A stretch of DNA of 64,000 bases, taken from Perna viridis. Lineage: Eukaryota. Positions 54,901 to 64,000 of this stretch are shown piece after piece. Every line of letters begins with the position of its first letter. Position 1 is the first letter of the stretch. The translations under genes and the position numbers were made by a program. The stretch spans positions 8,060,001 through 8,124,000 of the forward strand of contig CM074515.1 in NCBI GenBank assembly GCA_037379345.1, read 5' to 3'. The notes beneath the pieces are model-generated. The model was given only the letters and a program-made list of their open reading frames with translations. It had not been told where the DNA came from and ran no database searches.

Positions 54901-57900
54901 CTTGTCCAATGGCTGAAAATACAACAATTATTTGATATATAGCTTTTTATTAGTTAATACAAAGATGTCTATTGTGTAATTCATTTTCCATTTCTAATTT
55001 CATTGGTGAACATAAATTATCTTCCTCTTTTTAGTACTTCTCTCACAATTATAAAGTCATTCAAAAGCACTAAAAATCAAGATCTTATCAAGAAAAGAAG
55101 ACTCTAATGATCCACAATATGACAATGAGCTTCTTCCATAAGGTGTCTAGGGAAGACCAGATCAAAACATGCAAGCTAAATATACAACTTCAGCCATTAA
55201 ATTAAAAGTATTTGATCACAATACATTTAGATATACATAAACAGCATGCAAAATTGAAAGTACAAATAGGACCATATCTTGATTCTAAGTGTTCTGTCAG
55301 AAATACTGCGAAATCACTAAACTCATAAGACTTTCCAACCAGCACACCTGGTAATAGGAGGTCTTCAGTATTAGCATGGCAATTCATCATGAACACTCGA
55401 GGTTGATAAGAAAAATTTCAGACTAACTCTATAGAATGTAGTTGGCAATAAATATTTTGTATTCATTTTTCAACCCAAAAATTCCACAAATGAAACCATA
55501 GACATTAATAACAAAAGTTGGATAAAACAAAAGATTGGATGCCAAGCACTTGTAGCAAATGGATAGACTGTCATAAGTTTGAAGAATAAAGCATGTTCAA
55601 AAATTTAAACCCATCACAACATATACAGATATTATTGACAATATTGGAATTAGCATTATAAAAAAATATACAGCCATCAGAATAAATGTAAAGCCACACA
55701 CCGTAAACTGAAAAGAAAATGAATGTTACGATTCATGCATATTCTGATATCATACCTTTCCCATAATCCGAAAAAACTGTCAAATAAATAGGAAAATATT
55801 ACTTGCAATGACTGAAAGTTTTTTTTTCCGGTAAGTTTAACGTTTGTTTTGTATGATATTGTAAAATGAAGATTCAAGTGCCAAACCATATAACTGATTT
55901 ACAGGGATGGTTTTATGAGGTCATCAAACAAAGCGGAAATTGGTAAAATTGGAAATAAAAAAACAGTAAAAAAAGGAATCCAGATTTCAATTAGCGGAAT
56001 TCCCCTAAAAAGTGGAAAAATATCAACTCTAGATTTACAAAACATACAAAACTACTTTAATCAGTATGGTAATTTGCACCCTTGAAAAAAATTGTTTAAA
56101 ATTTCAGGTGTATGTTGGTATCTAACAAATGATGACAAACAGTAAGGAAAATTGTGAAATTTAACAAATATGCTTAGATCTTGAAAAATACCAGACCAAA
56201 TATGACACCATTTCATGTATTTCAAGGAGAACAGCTGCTAAACCTTGAATTTGGAAAAGTTAAACAAAGATATGACCTTCATTTCATGATCAGAAACCTA
56301 ATAATACTGAAGGTCAAACTGTTCCCTGAAGCCAATTTACTAAGTACCGATAACCCAACCCTACAAAATCATCATACCCTGTTTAATAAGTAGTATGAAT
56401 GAACTACAAAGGCAGGGAAAAGACAAGAAATGTAAAATATACCTCTGTTGATACTGAATTTTTTCATCTTCTTTGTATCTATTCATCATGTCATACCTTT
56501 CTCTTCTCTCCATTCTCTGTAAACCATACAGTATCAATATAGCCGCACAATAACAATAACAAACATATGGAAAATTATCAACTGTTAATAAACTCAATTA
56601 TGTTAGTTTACATATGTAAATACACAAATCATTTAGGTTTGGATTTAGAAATATAGTTGGTGGAGTTCAATTCTGAAACCATTCTATTTTCAAGAGCTTA
56701 GCAGTGTGCACTTCTGTAAAACAAGCACTACTTTATTTCGGATGCACAGACATATGACATATGTATGGACTGATATATGTATGAACATACCCTAGCTCTC
56801 TGAGCATCCTTTAACATTTGTCGTTTATGATTCCGTTGAAAGCTAGTGATGATTCTCCTTATACGTGTATTTAGATCTGACATGGATGGCCAGGGTAGTT
56901 TTTCCTCATCATCACATTCCATAGCAGATGGTGTGGAAAGGTCTTTGGCAGCATTACTGTTCTCCTGACTAGAGAGAACGGATGTACAGGTATCCTCATC
57001 TTCATCTTTCATCACACTGATATTACCTTTAGTATCATCTAAATCTTCCCTATAATCATTGATTTTTTTTTATTAATGAAAATACTCATTGCAAATGTCT
57101 CTTCACTTACATTTTCTCATTTTAATCCCATATATGAAAAATCCTACATCAATATTGTCTCAGGGCATAATCTAGGCGCCAAAATGGAGATTTTAGTTGC
57201 CAAGAATTTTTAAAAGTAGTTAAAAGTCGCCAACTCGTGTTCTTTTAAGAGAAGTGAAGTCGCTGTACAATTTGACCAAAGAGAGATAACTCTAGCCCTT
57301 CCAGGTAATAAACAACCAAATTAGCGGCAATTTGCGTAACGAAGAGAAAACATAAATTGGAAGAAGTTCACATAATTTTTGTCAGTTCCAAGCAATCCAG
57401 GGAATATTTCACCCATTCTAACGACTTGGATAATGGATAAAACCAGCAGTACTTATTTGAATGAAACTTATTCAACTTATTGAGTTCAAAATCAAAGGAA
57501 AACAATCACAAAAGGTAAGGTACATGTACATTTTGTGTTCCTTGATTAAATTTGTAATTTGATGACAACAATTAATTTATTTACTCAATGAGAGACTCTT
57601 ACAGTGATTTCAATGGTTTTAAAAAACAATTAATAATTGGTAGGTTCAGCTTGGATCACAGTTATGTGTATGAGTGCATGTGGGTTCGAAGTGACACTTT
57701 GTTTTGATAAGGCAAAAATAATGATTATTAAGCTAACTATTATCATTTATAATCCCACTTAACAATGTACATATACATGCATGTCTGTACAGGTTGATTT
57801 GTGTCCCTACGTGGGCGCCATTTGTATTATAAGAAACAAGTTCTCAATGACAATCTGATCACTTACTATATTCAATTAAAGTTACTTATTATACATGAAC

Positions 57901-60504
57901 TTATTCATTTGCAAGTATAGAAAATGGAATTACAGTATTAAACTTAAACTTATCTTATTTGTTTATTATTTATTAGAATACATGTCCTTGAGATACAACT
58001 TCATATCAATACGATAAAATATTCTAGCGGTGATGTATGATTTCTCCCCATTCCAGTCTCACTTCTCCCTATCACTCCTGGAAGGGAGAAGTAAAATCTC
58101 CCATTCACTGAATCCTAGATTATGTCCTGGTGTCCTTTAATATTCATTGATATTATTTGTTTGTTTCATAATGATTCATCATTTCAATGCAACAGTGAAA
58201 CATCAGACTAAGATAACATCATATATATACAAGGGTTGGATATCTGATCACTGATGGTTAGTATGTTTTCAGTGACTGTAGATTCAATAATAACTAGGAC
58301 AGCAAGTATAAACTTTGACAATCTAAATTTCCTAGAACAGTGATATCAACTGAAATCAAACCTCTGATATATATATTACATGCAGGTATCACAAATCACC
58401 TAACTTCTTAAGATACAAGTACTTACTCATCATCACCACCATCATTTTGTTCAGCAGCTAAAGCAGCTCCTGCTGGTGGACCACAACGAGCGAGGAAACA
58501 TAAACAGGGGTCGTTCCTCATCAAGTTATACTTCTCATAACCTGAAATTTACAGGAAATATTTGTGTTAGTGTATAGTTAATTACAGAGTAAAAACTACT
58601 GTCAGAATTGACCCAATAAGAACTAAGGAGTAAATTCACTAATACTAGTTCCAGGCTTAGGCCCAAAAATAAAATGTCTGTTTTAGGGTTACATTCCTCC
58701 CAAAAATAGGGTAGGTAGGTATTTTCATTTTATTTTTTTTTTTTCATTTTATTTTTCTCAACTAAAGTTGAGCCTATATTTGTAAAATAGCATCATGTTT
58801 AAGTCATGAAAGTGTATGGTTTTAAGTAGAAAGTTTAATGTTTAACATACACATCTATTAATCATGTCTTTTATTACAATACATTTATTGTATTTTTTGT
58901 AGGAATTTTGAACAAAATATAAGTACACTGTATTTGAAAATGATACCTGCAAATACAAGTTACAAATTTCTCTGTTCATTGACATATTTTTTTAAAGAAA
59001 AAGTGAAAAATGCATATTTATATGAATAAAGTGTTATCAAAATGTTTCATTCAAGAAATGAAGAATGTCTGACCTGTATGTTATAGATGTACAAATGTAT
59101 GTCTGGTATCGTAAAATAAGTTGCAACACTTATTGTTAATGTTTTTCTGTCAACTTCTTCATGATAGAGCTCAAAAAGCTCCCCAAGTAAAATCAGTCTA
59201 CTTGGAAGTGATGACACCAAAAATTTGCTTTCTTGGTGACAGCATTTATTATATTTTAGTGCCATGATACTCGTGGCTTCCATTGCGCTCATCATCAGTT
59301 ATACGCTCGGATTTACGTGATATAAATCAGCCTTCTATTCAAACGCTTTTGTGACCTGGTTTTAAACGTACTTTTGGTTTGACCGGAAATGATCTGTATT
59401 ATACAAGAAATTGGTGGAAATTACCAATTTTGTTAATTTGGGAGAAAAAATGTATTAGGGTCGGGGGAAAAAAAATTAGGGTCAGTCGCGAAACCTGAAT
59501 CAGACATTTTTTTGGGGGGCCTTACTATTTTGCGAAAGTTTCAACTTACTATATGAAATTTTCTATTTGCCTATTTTAAATCACAAAATTTGTACTGTAA
59601 CAATCCATACATACATCTTAAATCAATGCCCACTACACAATTTTTTTTTCTCAGTGTAAAAATTCCTTTAACACTTATGGTGACATCCTCAATTCCTGAT
59701 ACCTGTAAGACAACCAACAATAATTCATGTACATAATTAAAATGCCCAATCTTAAGAGTTTATGACTTACCATGTTTAAATACACCAATCAACAGAGATC
59801 TATCAGATAGTTCATCCCACCATGGTGTTGGTGGATCCCCTTCAACAGTAGTTCTTGGAAGCTCTATTTCACTGAAACAAACATCAACACATCAACATCA
59901 GATCATTTGTAAATAAACTCTGAATAATGTGCTTGATCATATACCCTAATTTGATCATTACCCTTTCAAACAGTAGTTTGGCTCATTCTCCAGATATATC
60001 TCCACTATCATACAAACTAATGCATGAATGTCCTGTATAAGAAACATCAGACATCACGATTGTCACTGATGTGATTAGGGTTAGATCGCTAATGTCATCA
60101 CATATTCAACAAACAGGAAACTTACACTTAAAAACAATATTGCAATACCTTTGATAAGTATTAAGTCACCTCAGGAAGGAACAGCTACACACTGACTAAA
60201 TCTCAAAAGATCTTGGTAAATGATAGCTTAGTGTCTATCTATTGACCAAACTGATTCTACTTAACTTGACGGAAATTCTATTGAACTAAATGAAATAACC
60301 ACTGAATTGCATGTTCATGTACACATATGTTAAAAGATTAAATATTTTTAGTAATAGTATATATATACATGTATTATAAACTACTATAGATACCCTTTGT
60401 TTTTGTAAGATTACCTGACATCCAGTCCTTTGTTGATTTTCTCTGCAGCATCACCAATTATTTCTTCTCTTAGATAGTACAATAATCTGACTCGCAACAA
60501 CACT
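41889..60504 (-). CDS. CHD7: CHD7/CHD8/Kismet-like chromodomain helicase, 3' part (5' exons outside window). Exons: 60415-60504, 59771-59871, 58427-58541, 56791-57049, 56443-56516, 54701-54912, 54142-54355, ~53751-53884, 52283-52962, 52019-52102, ~51550-51795, 50666-50717, 49685-49818, 47996-48064, 46298-46433, 45353-45498, 43894-44001, 43496-43600, 41889-42908
   Basis: GT-AG exons join in frame and give CHD6-9 subfamily motifs: [139 protein letters not shown], two BRK domains ([35 protein letters not shown]; [36 protein letters not shown]). The symbol denotes the invertebrate CHD6-9/kismet family member. Two donor sites are ambiguous. Confidence 0.93.
44553..45272 (+). mobile_element. Helentron/HINE (DINE-1-like) element with internal ~160-bp tandem repeats
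   Basis: Subterminal inverted repeat ATACCCCAC / GTGGGGTAT, short palindrome CGCAAC..GTTGCG, GGAC/AGAC microsatellite-like tract, and about three tandem units at 44760-45200. Confidence 0.65.
52283..52962 (-). CDS. CHD7: Long acidic (Glu/Lys/Asp-rich) exon of the CHD7/Kismet-like gene
   Basis: Part of ORF 52256..53086; ttttag acceptor, gtaagt donor; in phase with neighbouring exons. Confidence 0.8.
55288..55397 (-). ncRNA. SNORD8: Box C/D snoRNA, SNORD8/SNORD9 (mgU6-53) family, predicted guide for U6 snRNA A53 2'-O-methylation
   Basis: Minus strand: AGTGTTC-ATGATGA(C)-ATTGCCATGCTAATA-CTGA(D')-...-CTGA(D)-CA-GAACACT, with a 7-bp terminal stem. GCCATGCTAAT is complementary to U6 AUUAGCAUGGC. 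Intronic and sense to the CHD host gene. Confidence 0.92.
57161..58129. mobile_element. hAT-like non-autonomous element
   Basis: TIRs CAGGGCATAATCTAGG / CCTAGATTATGTCCTG; target duplication not clear. Confidence 0.65.
58197..58257 (-). ncRNA. Degenerate box C/D snoRNA candidate related to the array
   Basis: GTGATCA-GATATCCAACC-CTTG-TATATAT-ATGATGT-TATCTTAGT-CTGA-TGTTTC; imperfect C box but colinear with the array unit. Confidence 0.4.
58657..59524. mobile_element. Non-autonomous TIR element
   Basis: Imperfect ~35-bp TIRs TTAGGCCCAAAAATAAAATGTCTG / CAGACATTTTTTTGGGGGGCCTTA. Confidence 0.65.
60041..60107 (-). ncRNA. Solitary intronic box C/D snoRNA candidate, diverged relative of the array
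   Basis: GAATAT-GTGATGA-CATTAGCGATCTAACC-CTAA-...-CTGA-TGTTTC; same size, a GATCYAAC core at the same position and the same CTGATGT end. Confidence 0.55.
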
Positions 60505-60936
60505 CTAAAAAAAGGATAGGAAAAACACATCAAGAATAAGAGACACAAGTGTAACTCAGTGTGGAACAGGTGAAATAGCAATATAAGGACTTTTCAATGC
60601 AAACATAACATGAGGCAAGTGTAATTTGTGAATGGACAAAGATATAAGCTAGCAAAGAATTTTGATAGATGTGTCACTTATCATAATTTGGTATCATGCT
60701 CAGTCCTAGAAACTTATTACAAGTTGTCCAATATTACGAGTGTATTTGCAGATTACCTCCTATCAGATAGATCCTCAGCGATGATTCTAAGGTTTAATTT
60801 GTATAGATAACTGTTGTGAGGTCTTCGACATTAAGTGACCTTGCCAAATACAAATAATAAGATATTGCAGATATAATTATTGTTTACATGTCAAAGAAGC
60901 CTTATGGTACATTTGTTAGATACACAAATCAAAACA

Positions 60937-61001
60937 GAACATCAGTTTTAAGAAATCATCACTTTAAAGTATGTGTTGGACCTCTTTATCATCATTTGTT
61001 C
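60937..61001 (-). ncRNA. Array box C/D snoRNA copy 1 (intact boxes)
   Basis: GAACAA-ATGATGA-TAAAGAGGTCCAACACATACTTTAAA-GTGATGA-TTTCTTAAAA-CTGA-TGTTC; terminal stem GAACA/TGTTC. Confidence 0.75.
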
Positions 61002-61354
61002 AAAATTACAAACATTTGCTTCAGTATTTTCTGAAAAGTACAATAAATAAAACAAGAAAATAACATACTTATCCTAAATTAAACATGTAACAATATGTTC
61101 TAGAGTTTGAAAAATTTAATGCTATCCATGGAAAGCTTCAGCATGACATTTAAATTCACAACAAAATCCAACTTTTCAGGACAAACTTAATCTGCCTATG
61201 GAAATGGGTGATGGGAATTTTTAAGACTTGAACAAGTATTTATGAATAAAAGACACCAAAGGAAAGAGTGTCATGGTTTTTCTTCAGGTCATCATCCTAA
61301 TGGAAGAGGCAACCCTTCATAATCCTGTCAATACAAAAGGACCCTAATTTATGC

Positions 61355-61415
61355 CAAACACACATAAGAAATCATCATTACTCAATATGTGTTGGATCTC
61401 TTGATCATCATATGT
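61355..61415 (-). ncRNA. Array copy 2 (box D lost; possible pseudogene)
   Basis: ATGATGA-TCAAGAGATCCAACACATATTGAGTA-ATGATGA-TTTCTTATGTGTGTTTGG; no terminal CTGA. Confidence 0.55.
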
Positions 61416-62040
61416 ACTGCTGTAATTGTATTAAACTTCTTGAGTATCCTCAAATGAAAGAACAAATTTTTGTGTTTTAATTTCCATGGTTTTGTAAAAT
61501 TATAAGCGATTCATAATATAAAATGATTAAAAATAAATGTTTAAAATTTCATTTGACTCTTTTTTTTAATTTATTTACTGCAAAAATAGCAGAATATACT
61601 TCCATGATAGTGATTCATCATTCATAAGTATACAAGAATCACTGCTTAAATCATATTTTGGGGGTTGGAGGTAAGGTTAAGGATCAAGTTTTAACAAATT
61701 ACAACCCAAATCTTAGAAAGCTAACTCTGTGACCAAACAATCCTGAGTGCAGCAAATGAGAGAAACTAGAGACACGCTCTTAAAATGAACGTTAGACAAA
61801 TAATAAATCATCACTACACACACTATTGTGGACCTCTTACTAATGTGCATCCATTCAACATACAAACATTTTTTTTTTTTGTGTGTGTTCGCGGTACCTT
61901 TGTTCAAATTCTTAGACAGGCTTTACATGACAGAACCTGTAATTGTAACAACTAGTTCAAAGGAGAAGTAGTAACCAAACAACAAAAAATCTTTACAAAG
62001 CTTTGACACCAATTTTATTTAAACAGTAGAATTACAAAAT

Positions 62041-62107
62041 GAACATCAGAAAAATAAGAAATCATCATTAAGCAATATGTGTTGGATCTCTTGATCATCA
62101 TATGTCC
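62041..62107 (-). ncRNA. Array box C/D snoRNA copy 3 (intact boxes)
   Basis: GGACAT-ATGATGA-TCAAGAGATCCAACACATATTGCTTA-ATGATGA-TTTCTTATTTTT-CTGA-TGTTC. Confidence 0.78.
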
Positions 62108-62241
62108 CAATTCAAAATTCAAAATATCAAATCTAAGTCGTGTATAGAGGCTCGTTATCTTTCTTGTAAACCAACCAGTTCTCCAGATTTATGGACACCG
62201 ATATGATCATTATAAGTATACAAACATTGGAAACAGAAAAC

Positions 62242-62306
62242 ACATCAGACAAATAAGAAATCATCATTACACAATATGTGTTGGATCTCTTGATCATCAT
62301 TTGTCC
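62242..62306 (-). ncRNA. Array box C/D snoRNA copy 4 (intact boxes)
   Basis: ACAA-ATGATGA-TCAAGAGATCCAACACATATTGTGTA-ATGATGA-TTTCTTATTTGT-CTGA-TGT. Confidence 0.78.
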
Positions 62307-62734
62307 TAATTCAAAATCCAAATAACCAAAAATATTCATGTTTGAAAGCTTTTGTTATTTTTCTTTGTGTGTATCAACCAGCAGTCTTCAATAAATTCTT
62401 ATAGAAAAATTGTTGACATTTCAAAAAATGCTGGACCAAAACAGCCTTTACTGGACTAATTTTTTTGTGTGTATTTAAGTCCCAATAGGCGATAGATTTT
62501 TACAAGAATTATGGTTCTTCCTCTTATTAAGGAGTGGAACAACATCAGACTTACACACAGCCTAAAAACAAGTTTTTCTTCTGATTAGATTGCAAAATTG
62601 TTGGTTTTGTCCATTGGAAAGTCGGTCTTCATGAAGACTGAACCAGTTCTATAGATTGTGAACACCAGTATGATCATTTTAAATCATCAAACATTTGAAA
62701 CAGAGAAAACAAGATTGATTTTTTCTCCCCAAGC

Positions 62735-62798
62735 ACATCAGATAAATAAGAAATCATCATTACACAATATGTGTTGGATCTCTTGATCATCATATGTC
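62735..62798 (-). ncRNA. Array box C/D snoRNA copy 5 (intact boxes)
   Basis: ACAT-ATGATGA-TCAAGAGATCCAACACATATTGTGTA-ATGATGA-TTTCTTATTTAT-CTGA-TGT. Confidence 0.78.
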
Positions 62799-63300
62799 CT
62801 AATTCAAAATGCAAAATAACAAATTCACGTATACAGACTTTTGTTATTTTTTTGTCTAAACCAACCAGCAGTCTTCACTAAGTCCTACAGAAAAATGGTA
62901 GACATTTTCAAGAAATGCTGGACCAAAGTACCCTTTCTCTGATCAAGGTGTGGAACAATGTCAAACTGACAGATCACTGGATAACACATCTCTGCTGGTT
63001 GGATCTCTATATTAATTGTTTTATCCACAGGACCAACAGACTTTGTGAAGACTGAACCATTACACAGATTGAGAACACCACTATAAGAAATGATTTTAGA
63101 AGGAACAACAGTTTAGCAGAAATTGGCAAAATGGGAAGTAAATAAATTTTAAAAATAAAGAATCATTATGGTAAAATCAGGATTACAAACAAAAACCAAA
63201 ACAGAAATCTGCCAAAAAGCAAAAGAATATAATCCCAGCAGTATCATCATCTCAAATCATTTACAAACATTTGTAACTAAGGAAACTGGATATTTCCCCC

Positions 63301-63361
63301 AAACAGACAAATAAGAAATCATCATTACACAGTTTGTGTTGGATCTCTTTATCATCATATG
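63301..63361 (-). ncRNA. Array copy 6 (box D degenerate, CTGT)
   Basis: ATGATGA-TAAAGAGATCCAACACAAACTGTGTA-ATGATGA-TTTCTTATTTGT-CTGT; terminal stem lost. Confidence 0.55.
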
Positions 63362-63833
63362 AATGACTTTTGAATCTTACAGAAATGCTGTAAGCCAACT
63401 ATTTTAAAAGATACTTATTCCATGTTTCAGGGTGTCAATTCAATTTTGATGCTATTTTATCTTGACTTACACTTTATCTTACATATATTTGATAATGAAG
63501 GACTATTTCATGACAATCTGTTTTCACCTCTCTTGCGAGGGGATGGGTTCTGGAAAATTTGTGAAAATAACAGACCATTAATGAATGTGATTTGATTTAT
63601 AGTATTCAGTGGAGAAAATTAAAATGTTTATTTACCTCTCATCTTTCAGAGAACATTGTAAAATAGATTGATATTTTTACAACAGAGAAGATTTTACGAG
63701 GTCAACAAAGAAAGAGGAAATTGGCAAAATCAGACGTAAATACACAGGGAAAAAAAAGAATCGTAATGGTAAAATCCAGATTTGAAATAGTGGAATTCCA
63801 CTATAAAGCAGAAAAAAATCATCCCTGTCACAA

Positions 63834-63900
63834 GAACATCAGGCATAAAAGAAATCATCATTATAAAATATGTGTTGGATCTCTTGATCATCATATGTTC
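63834..63900 (-). ncRNA. Array box C/D snoRNA copy 7 (intact boxes)
   Basis: GAACAT-ATGATGA-TCAAGAGATCCAACACATATTTTATA-ATGATGA-TTTCTTTTATGC-CTGA-TGTTC; terminal stem GAACA/TGTTC. Confidence 0.78.
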
Positions 63901-64000
63901 TCACTAAATAATAAACGAAAGGATGAAAAAGCTATTTTAAGGTGATTAAGTTGAACTAAGATTATGTCCTAGAGTTAAACATTTGAACCAAATGTATCAC

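What the first reader, a model, noticed from the sequence alone, without database searches (positions are those of the whole stretch)
60972..63885. Predicted target of the array: 18S rRNA GUUGGAUCUC (SNORD19-like site), guided from a non-canonical D' box
Seen: GAGATCCAAC is retained in six copies. Copy 1 has GAGGTCCAAC and the solitary relative has GATCTAAC; both changes turn Watson-Crick pairs into G-U wobbles against GUUGGAUCUC, as expected for an RNA-RNA guide. From recall: 18S rRNA has the conserved GCUCGUAGUUGGAUCU segment, and vertebrate SNORD19 methylates a G there (human Gm683) using GATCCAAC-N-CTGA. Here the same spacing gives GATCCAAC-A-CATA, so D' would be CAUA and the +5 rule selects the first G of UUGGAU. 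The duplex is only about 10 bp, and conservation extends to AAGAGATCCAACACA, so an mRNA or other target remains possible.
Basis: inference. Interest (0 to 1): 0.7.

Follow-up and report, generated by a model that had tools for sequence, protein, structure and literature searches.

The report
Seven-copy intronic rRNA methylation guide
Seven near-identical 54-56-base elements, five with complete C/D-box snoRNA signals, sit in one intron of a chromatin-remodeller gene and match this animal's own 18S rRNA, so they are predicted to guide ribose methylation at a site so far listed as methylated only in vertebrates, and possibly at a second site in 28S rRNA.

Summary
GAGATCCAAC lies between box C and a CATA box in 6 of 7 array copies; the seventh has GAGGTCCAAC. 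The genome's own 18S has GTTGGATCTC at 639-648. With CATA as D', the best rRNA site is 18S G642 (10 Watson-Crick pairs; 3 of 300 shuffles do as well). The runner-up is 28S G3213 (8 pairs). These equal human 18S-G683 and 28S-G4464/4494, the two sites that SNORD19 methylates. No canonical guide for either site was found elsewhere in the genome. The extra conserved AA pairs inside the RNA, and no longer complement exists above chance, so an mRNA target is unlikely. It is not a SNORD19 member: no Rfam match, guide on the D' side, host CHD6-9 rather than GNL3. It works like one. Expression and methylation are untested, and the shared intron may hinder release of single copies.

The parts
63839..63894 (-). 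C/D unit, intact: box C ATGATGA, guide 63874-63883, D' CATA, C' ATGATGA, D CTGA, 7-bp terminal stem
63303..63358 (-). C/D unit, damaged: guide 63338-63347 intact, D' CAAA, box D CTGT
62738..62793 (-). C/D unit, intact; guide 62773-62782; strongest fold (z -3.6)
62245..62300 (-). C/D unit, intact; guide 62280-62289, D' CATA 62275-62278
62046..62101 (-). C/D unit, intact; guide 62081-62090
61356..61411 (-). C/D unit, damaged: guide 61391-61400 intact, no box D at the usual place
60942..60995 (-). C/D unit, intact, 54 nt; guide GAGGTCCAAC 60975-60984 (one G-U with 18S), D' CATA 60970-60973; nearest the 3' splice site (436 nt)
61788..61844 (-). decayed eighth copy (box C lost, D CTAA)
   Evidence: (nhmmer E 3e-5)
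60505..64000 (-). host intron (runs on to 64862, outside the window; 4358 nt, GT..AG) of a CHD6-9/kismet gene; holds the whole array
   Evidence: joint in 4 of 4 runs laid; frame; PF23078 E 1.9e-34 in a downstream exon
60047..60101 (-). separate C/D element in the next intron ('solitary relative'): GTGATGA ... AGCGATCTAAC-C-CTAA ... CTGA; kinship to the array not shown, target ambiguous
58199..58257 (-). possible degenerate relative in a later intron: GATATCCAAC-C-CTTG, C' ATGATGT, D CTGA, box C decayed
   Evidence: nhmmer E 0.39

Best explanation
The array is a set of intron-encoded C/D-box elements whose 5' antisense stretch pairs over 10 bases with the animal's own 18S rRNA, and they likely act as snoRNA guides predicted to put a 2'-O-methyl group on 18S G642 from a non-standard CAUA D' box, and possibly on 28S G3213 as well. 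Shown: boxes, host intron, pairing, conservation pattern among the copies. Inferred: (1) after splicing of the CHD6-9 pre-mRNA, 15.5K/NOP58/NOP56/fibrillarin assemble on the canonical terminal C/D motif; (2) the perfect C' and the internal stem AAGAGA(UC)/(GA)UUUCUU position the weak D'; (3) rRNA displaces that stem, and the fifth base from CAUA is methylated; (4) the shared core GUUGGAU lets one guide serve both sites, as vertebrate SNORD19 does. It is a functional counterpart of SNORD19/69, not a detectable homologue.
For: Register-fixed scan of own 18S, 5.8S and 28S: best site 18S G642 in 7 of 7 copies (-14.8; -14.2 for copy 60995); 28S G3213 is second in 6 and third in 1. Nulls: 3 of 300 shuffled guides reach -14.8; a 10-bp match in this register arises in 0.475% of 20,000 shuffles, any 10-mer in 2.0%. 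Both sites match the substrates on which SNORD19 was active in yeast (PMC6984369 supplement). Conservation in 7 copies: guide 1 departure in 10 columns, linker 10 in 7, upstream flank 62 in 23. With the boxes held open, binding to 18S gains -10 to -16 kcal/mol in the 5 intact copies. In yeast snR48 only the 3' A of D' was essential and a 5' C set the register (PMC5389607); CAUA keeps both. No canonical guide found elsewhere or in GNL3. The host gene also carries a U6-A53 guide.
Against: No direct evidence of expression or methylation; all runs laid were contigs. CAUA lacks the G of the GA pair, and van Nues & Watkins found GA pairs needed in U18. D' was placed partly by the target; the overlapping CACA would select A644. 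No orthologue from another species was found (49 of 49 metagenome loci looked like chance or coding sequence), so conservation is only among paralogues that may be recent or gene-converted. 18S-G683 is listed as unmethylated in fly, yeast, Arabidopsis and Dictyostelium. In naked RNA the internal fold nearly cancels target binding in copy 62793 (-1.2) and weakens it in 62101 (-3.9). 2 of 7 copies lack box D yet keep the guide. All copies share one intron and lie 436-3333 nt from the 3' splice site. The 28S duplex alone is weak (-8.7; the shuffle mean best is -7.3).
Confidence: 0.65

Rival explanations
1. The copies are real C/D elements but are mostly processed into long snoRNA-ended RNAs (sno-lncRNAs, up to about 3 kb between the outer intact copies), or act on host splicing. 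Guide activity is minor or a relic.
For: All 7 copies lie in one intron, with no internal joint listed in 4 of 4 runs laid. Introns with two snoRNAs give sno-lncRNAs in human cells (PMC5054931). Both outermost copies have intact boxes and terminal stems. Intronic K-loop RNAs can slow host splicing (bioRxiv 10.64898/2026.08.03.742641).
Against: The guide stays almost invariant while linker and flanks drift, which a mere end-cap would not need. Only 0.3% of klRNAs have rRNA/snRNA complementarity. A snoRNA at the end of a long RNA might still guide.
Confidence: 0.15
2. The snoRNA is made, but CAUA does not act as D', so it is an inactive or orphan RNA. The conserved core reflects the internal stem plus recent duplication or gene conversion.
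For: D' lacks GA. AAGAGAUC and GAUUUCUU pair in 6 of 7 predicted folds. Three copies arose by tandem duplication with flanks 76-85% alike. Two copies without box D keep the guide.
Against: CAAC-A-CA is invariant although the linker that could pair with it varies. The match to two known methylation sites in the right register is unlikely by chance. No other guide was found.
Confidence: 0.12
3. The main target is another RNA (mRNA, tRNA or an snRNA) that pairs with the longer stretch AAGAGAUCCAACACA.
For: The stretch is invariant apart from one change. U1, U4, U5, minor snRNAs, tRNAs and spliced mRNAs were not scanned, nor were G-U-containing complements genome-wide.
Against: The 17-mer occurs only in the array. 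The 15-mer occurs at one other place on either strand, control 1. No useful pairing of the 5' guide with own U6 or three U2 variants. The extra AA is explained by the internal stem.
Confidence: 0.05

Closest known systems
SNORD19/SNORD19B (vertebrate; Rfam RF00569)
   Same: Same predicted sites: 18S-G683 and 28S-G4464 equivalents, shown as dual activity in yeast (PMC6984369); several copies in introns of one host gene.
   Different: No Rfam match. Guide is 5' of D', while the GNL3-hosted G683 guide is listed as 3'. D' is CAUA. Host is CHD6-9, not GNL3. Copies share one intron. Only 54-56 nt from box C to box D.
SNORD69 (RF00574)
   Same: Core ATCCAAC; the Xenopus RNA is active on both sites although by inspection it makes only 7 contiguous pairs with the 18S substrate.
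   Different: 3' guide with canonical CTGA; best paired to 28S, while the array is best paired to 18S; no Rfam match.
Arabidopsis At1gCDbox13.1
   Same: Listed as guide of 25S Gm2918, equivalent to human G4494.
   Different: Sequence not seen; the 18S site is not listed as methylated in Arabidopsis.
Yeast snR48 (non-consensus D')
   Same: Near-consensus C' with a D' region lacking CUGA still directs methylation; two overlapping registers give two sites two bases apart. CACAUA could do the same (G642, A644).
   Different: Different sequence and target; tested experimentally, whereas this one is not.
sno-lncRNAs of the SNORD116 cluster
   Same: Several C/D snoRNAs in one intron.
   Different: SNORD116 is an orphan family in a non-coding host; here the host is protein-coding and there is an rRNA complement.

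Membership tests
box C/D snoRNA | 5' box C RUGAUGA | tested here: met
   ATGATGA in 7 of 7 copies
box C/D snoRNA | 3' box D CUGA | tested here: met
   5 of 7 copies; 63358 and 61411 lack it
box C/D snoRNA | terminal stem closing C and D | tested here: met
   4-7 bp in the five intact copies
box C/D snoRNA | internal C'/D' motif | tested here: inconclusive
   C' RTGATGA in 7 of 7; D' CATA in 6 of 7 differs from CUGA at 2 of 4 bases
box C/D snoRNA | about 10-nt complement to rRNA/snRNA ending next to D or D' | tested here: met
   10 bp with own 18S 639-648
box C/D snoRNA | intronic, on the host's sense strand | tested here: met
box C/D snoRNA | stable small RNA bound by fibrillarin/15.5K that directs methylation | not testable with these tools
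   only contigs were available
SNORD19/SNORD69 | match to Rfam RF00569 / RF00574 | tested here: not met
   no hit at E<=10 on 57500-64000; genome-wide best E 8.7 and 1.9, elsewhere and without the guide core. Controls: Rfam does pick snoZ17 (E 2.4e-4) and snoU6-53 (E 1.2e-4) as best hits for other guides of this genome
SNORD19/SNORD69 | antisense element next to the terminal box D | tested here: not met
   element is in the 5' half here; 3' in the vertebrate RNAs
SNORD19/SNORD69 | hosted in GNL3 introns | tested here: not met
   host is CHD6-9; own GNL3 region has no ATCCAAC-N-CTGA element
SNORD19/SNORD69 | pairs with the 18S-G683 and 28S-G4464 sites, +5 base = G | tested here: met
SNORD19/SNORD69 | methylates these sites | not testable with these tools
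   needs RiboMeth-seq or the yeast assay

The most novel reading that the evidence does not exclude
This invertebrate evolved, independently of vertebrate SNORD19/69, a dual 18S/28S methylation guide that works from the opposite half of the RNA through a GA-less CAUA D' box, and expanded it to seven copies inside one protein-coding intron. That would need a processing route other than one snoRNA per intron (endonucleolytic release, or guides active at the ends of sno-lncRNAs). It may have arisen by retargeting a SNORD4/Z17-like guide through a few point changes, with the 60101 element as an intermediate.
Probability: 0.25. Interest if true: 0.62.

Novelty: new variant of a known kind. Interest (0 to 1): 0.4.

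Why it matters
In the cross-species table of PMC11014333, 18S-Gm683 is listed only for human and Xenopus, and the 28S site for human, Xenopus and Arabidopsis but not fly or yeast. A guide in this invertebrate would make the 18S mark either older than vertebrates or gained twice. The 28S site lies four bases before the Um/Gm pair of the A-loop of the peptidyl-transferase centre (recalled). The case also gives a natural test of how far a D' box can drift (CAUA), and of how an animal handles seven C/D units in one intron. It is still an rRNA methylation guide, an old and well-understood class.

Tried and rejected
Rfam gathering scan of the whole window: 0 hits; E-value scan of 57500-64000: only weak generic C/D hits, best SNORD27 E 0.044. 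3' half as a D guide: bases next to box D vary among copies and the best pairings differ or are rich in G-U; rejected. Canonical guide elsewhere: GAGATCCAACNCTGA 5 hits; TGATGA-N5-25-ATCCAACNCTRA 5 hits; RTGATGA-N26-56-ATCCAACNCTGA 0; CAATCCAACNCTGA 19 hits, control 11; GRGRTCCAACNCTGA 27 hits, mostly one dispersed repeat; RTGATGA-N2-12-GAGRTCCAAC 9 hits, 7 in the array. None outside the array looked like a complete C/D RNA by eye. Closest were C7:10854779 (box C, guide and CTGA, but no C'/D seen) and C6:39415589 (reads as an acidic coding stretch). These searches miss guides with a degenerate box and do not prove absence. Solo as the SNORD4 orthologue (18S A121, 8 WC + 1 G-U): attractive, but a canonical one exists on C10. 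Solo's best Rfam hit snR87 (E 0.54) was taken as chance. Metagenome scan for orthologues: 49 loci, none credible. Sequencing runs: no RNA holder listed on record; contigs cannot show small-RNA ends. Further copies: a DNA search found only the 7; model R1 added only elements in the window (solo and 58244 match it by construction). The global-alignment null for the 58244 element is flawed (slice ran past box D), so I rely on its nhmmer E of 0.39. The paper on G-U at the target base (10.1093/nar/26.7.1576) was not held, so that rule is recalled. Earlier scan notes: nothing shown.

Full report
1. The sequence. On the - strand, 60942-63894 holds seven units of the form box C ATGATGA / T(C/A)AA GAGATCCAAC A / CATA / 7 nt / C' RTGATGA / TTTCTT... 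/ CTGA, 54-56 nt from C to D. Five have box D; 63358 has CTGT and D' CAAA; 61411 has no box D. A decayed eighth copy lies at 61788-61844. A DNA search of the 723-Mb genome found only these seven, and 30 kb beyond the window gave no more.

2. The host. The array lies in one 4358-nt intron (60505-64862). In 4 of 4 runs laid, contigs join the flanking exons across it and no internal joint was listed; these runs are guessed, not recorded, to be RNA. The joined exons read in one frame, and a downstream exon matches PF23078, CHD6-9 (E 1.9e-34; 1 of 4 pieces scanned gave a hit). The 18S looks bivalve to me (recalled, not tested). The same gene carries a U6-A53 guide, so it is a real snoRNA host.

3. 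The target. The genome's 18S, 5.8S and 28S were taken from contig C11. In an unconstrained scan of each whole unit, GAGATCCAAC/GTTGGATCTC at 18S 639 was the best duplex in 6 of 7 copies; in the damaged 61411 a pairing of its 3' tail scored higher. With CATA as D', the best site was 18S G642 in 7 of 7 copies; 28S G3213 (7 WC + G-U, mismatch, G-U, A-U) was second in six and third in 60995. Three of 300 shuffled guides reached the same energy (one reached -17.5); a perfect 10-mer in this register arose in 0.475% of 20,000 shuffles and any 10-mer in 2.0%. Deryusheva et al. (PMC6984369; passages, section 10 and supplement rows seen) tested the substrates GTAGTTGGATCTTGGG (18S-G683) and GCGTTGGATTGTTCA (28S-G4464) and found SNORD19 active on both. 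The genome has the same contexts at 18S 636 and 28S 3208. The second match is not independent of the first, since both share GUUGGAU, and on its own it is near background (-8.7 against a shuffle mean of -7.3). That the +5 base is a known methylation site, about 1-2% of rRNA positions (recalled), is independent support.

4. What is conserved and why. Departures from the majority among 7 copies: box C 0 in 7 columns, AA 0 in 2, guide 1 in 10, D' 1 in 4, linker 10 in 7, C' 1 in 7, TTTCTT 0 in 6, upstream flank 62 in 23. AAGAGAUC pairs with GAUUUCUU in the predicted fold of 6 of 7 copies (7 of the 8 pairs in 62300), though only 1 of 7 folds better than all 200 shuffles. This stem explains the AA and TTTCTT that the rRNA does not. 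It also removes the force of copy 60995's A>G, which keeps both the stem and the rRNA duplex. CAAC-A-CA is not explained by the stem, because the linker opposite varies. In naked RNA the fold competes with the target (net -1.2 to -8.8); with the four boxes held open, as by bound protein, net binding to 18S is -10.0 to -16.2 and to 28S -7.3 to -10.5 (five intact copies).

5. The D' box. CAUA lacks the G of CUGA, and its place was chosen partly from the target. van Nues and Watkins (PMC5389607; passages and section 10 seen) report active C'/D' motifs far from consensus: in snR48 only the 3' A was essential and a 5' C set the site, but GA pairs were needed in U18. The text has no CAUA. So CAUA is plausible, not shown; the overlapping CACA would select A644. 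Ten base pairs is no weakness: reconstituted RNPs modified 9-10-bp substrates well and longer ones poorly (PMC7229835, passages seen).

6. The 'solitary relative'. A profile of the seven copies did not find the 60101 element at E<20, and alignment scores against two copies had p 0.064 and 0.194. Its sites rank 18S G926, 28S G3213, 18S A121, 28S A490, and 18S G642 fifth; the G-U falls on the +5 base, which is usually unfavourable (recalled). It gives no support to the 18S G642 call. It has a similar internal stem and a CTAA at the same spacing, which is suggestive only.

7. Other targets and other guides. The 17-mer occurs only in the array, and the 15-mer once elsewhere (control 1). Own U6 and three U2 variants gave no useful pairing with the 5' guide. 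U1, U4, U5, tRNAs and mRNAs were not scanned. Six pattern searches, two Rfam family searches and a look at GNL3 found no convincing canonical guide for either site; they can miss degenerate RNAs. The same kind of pattern did find a canonical SNORD4-like RNA, a useful positive control.

8. Comparison. It works like SNORD19; it is not a member by the tests run: no Rfam match, guide on the D' side (the GNL3-hosted G683 guide is listed as 3' in PMC1636440, one table passage seen), different host. In Table S4 of PMC11014333 (supplement rows and passages seen) 18S-G683 is marked for human and Xenopus only, and G4494 for human, Xenopus and Arabidopsis. No mollusc map turned up in my searches; these cover only the open library. 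The shared intron raises the sno-lncRNA route (PMC5054931, passages seen) and the klRNA reading (bioRxiv 10.64898/2026.08.03.742641, abstract and section 7 seen; its supplements are closed).

9. Verdict. C/D snoRNA genes: about 0.9. Antisense element selected for 18S G642: about 0.75. G642 actually methylated by them: about 0.65. G3213 as well: about 0.45. No orthologue from another species and no small-RNA data could be obtained, so every step after base pairing is inferred. Interest 0.4: a new variant of an ordinary class, with two oddities (GA-less D', seven copies in one intron) that are easy to test.

Noticed in passing
window 55289-55395 (-): C/D snoRNA with CCATGCTAAT-A-CTGA, a 10-nt complement of the genome's U6 selecting A53; best Rfam hit snoU6-53, E 1.2e-4, below the gathering score. 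It lies in an intron of the same CHD6-9 gene. Vertebrate SNORD8/9 guide U6-A53 and sit in CHD8 (recalled); fly kis hosts the orphan snoRNA:kis-a. This may be a very old host-guide link.
   Followed up: partly
L080 1493-1566 (G000:C10:26344819): Canonical SNORD4/Z17-like snoRNA with a 9-bp terminal stem; guide TACGATCTAAG-C-CTGA selects 18S A121, where vertebrates have Um121; guide and target have changed together.
   Followed up: partly
window 60047-60101 (-): The solo C/D element pairs almost equally with 18S G926, 28S G3213 (both G-U at +5) and 18S A121 (Watson-Crick at +5); its guide plus D' is 11/16 like the array and 12/16 like the SNORD4-like RNA by inspection. Target unresolved.
   Followed up: partly
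L010, L012-L014, L138-L159: A dispersed repeat family carries GAG(G/A)TCCAACCCTGA, which looks like guide plus box D, mostly without a box C; 27 hits against control 1.
   Followed up: no
G000:C2:52.19-52.24 Mb; G000:C12:15.17-15.27 Mb: Tandem arrays of U6 (at least 48 copies, about 690-bp spacing) and U2 (at least 46 copies, about 1.73-kb spacing).
   Followed up: no
L021-L022, G000:C1:10931607: C/D-like element (ATGATGA ... CTGA, 72 nt) in a GNL3 intron without the SNORD19 core.
   Followed up: no
L077 2051-2543 (window about 62251-62743): One contig of run X1 goes back 493 bases: an extra repeat unit in that individual or an assembly artefact of the repeat.
   Followed up: no
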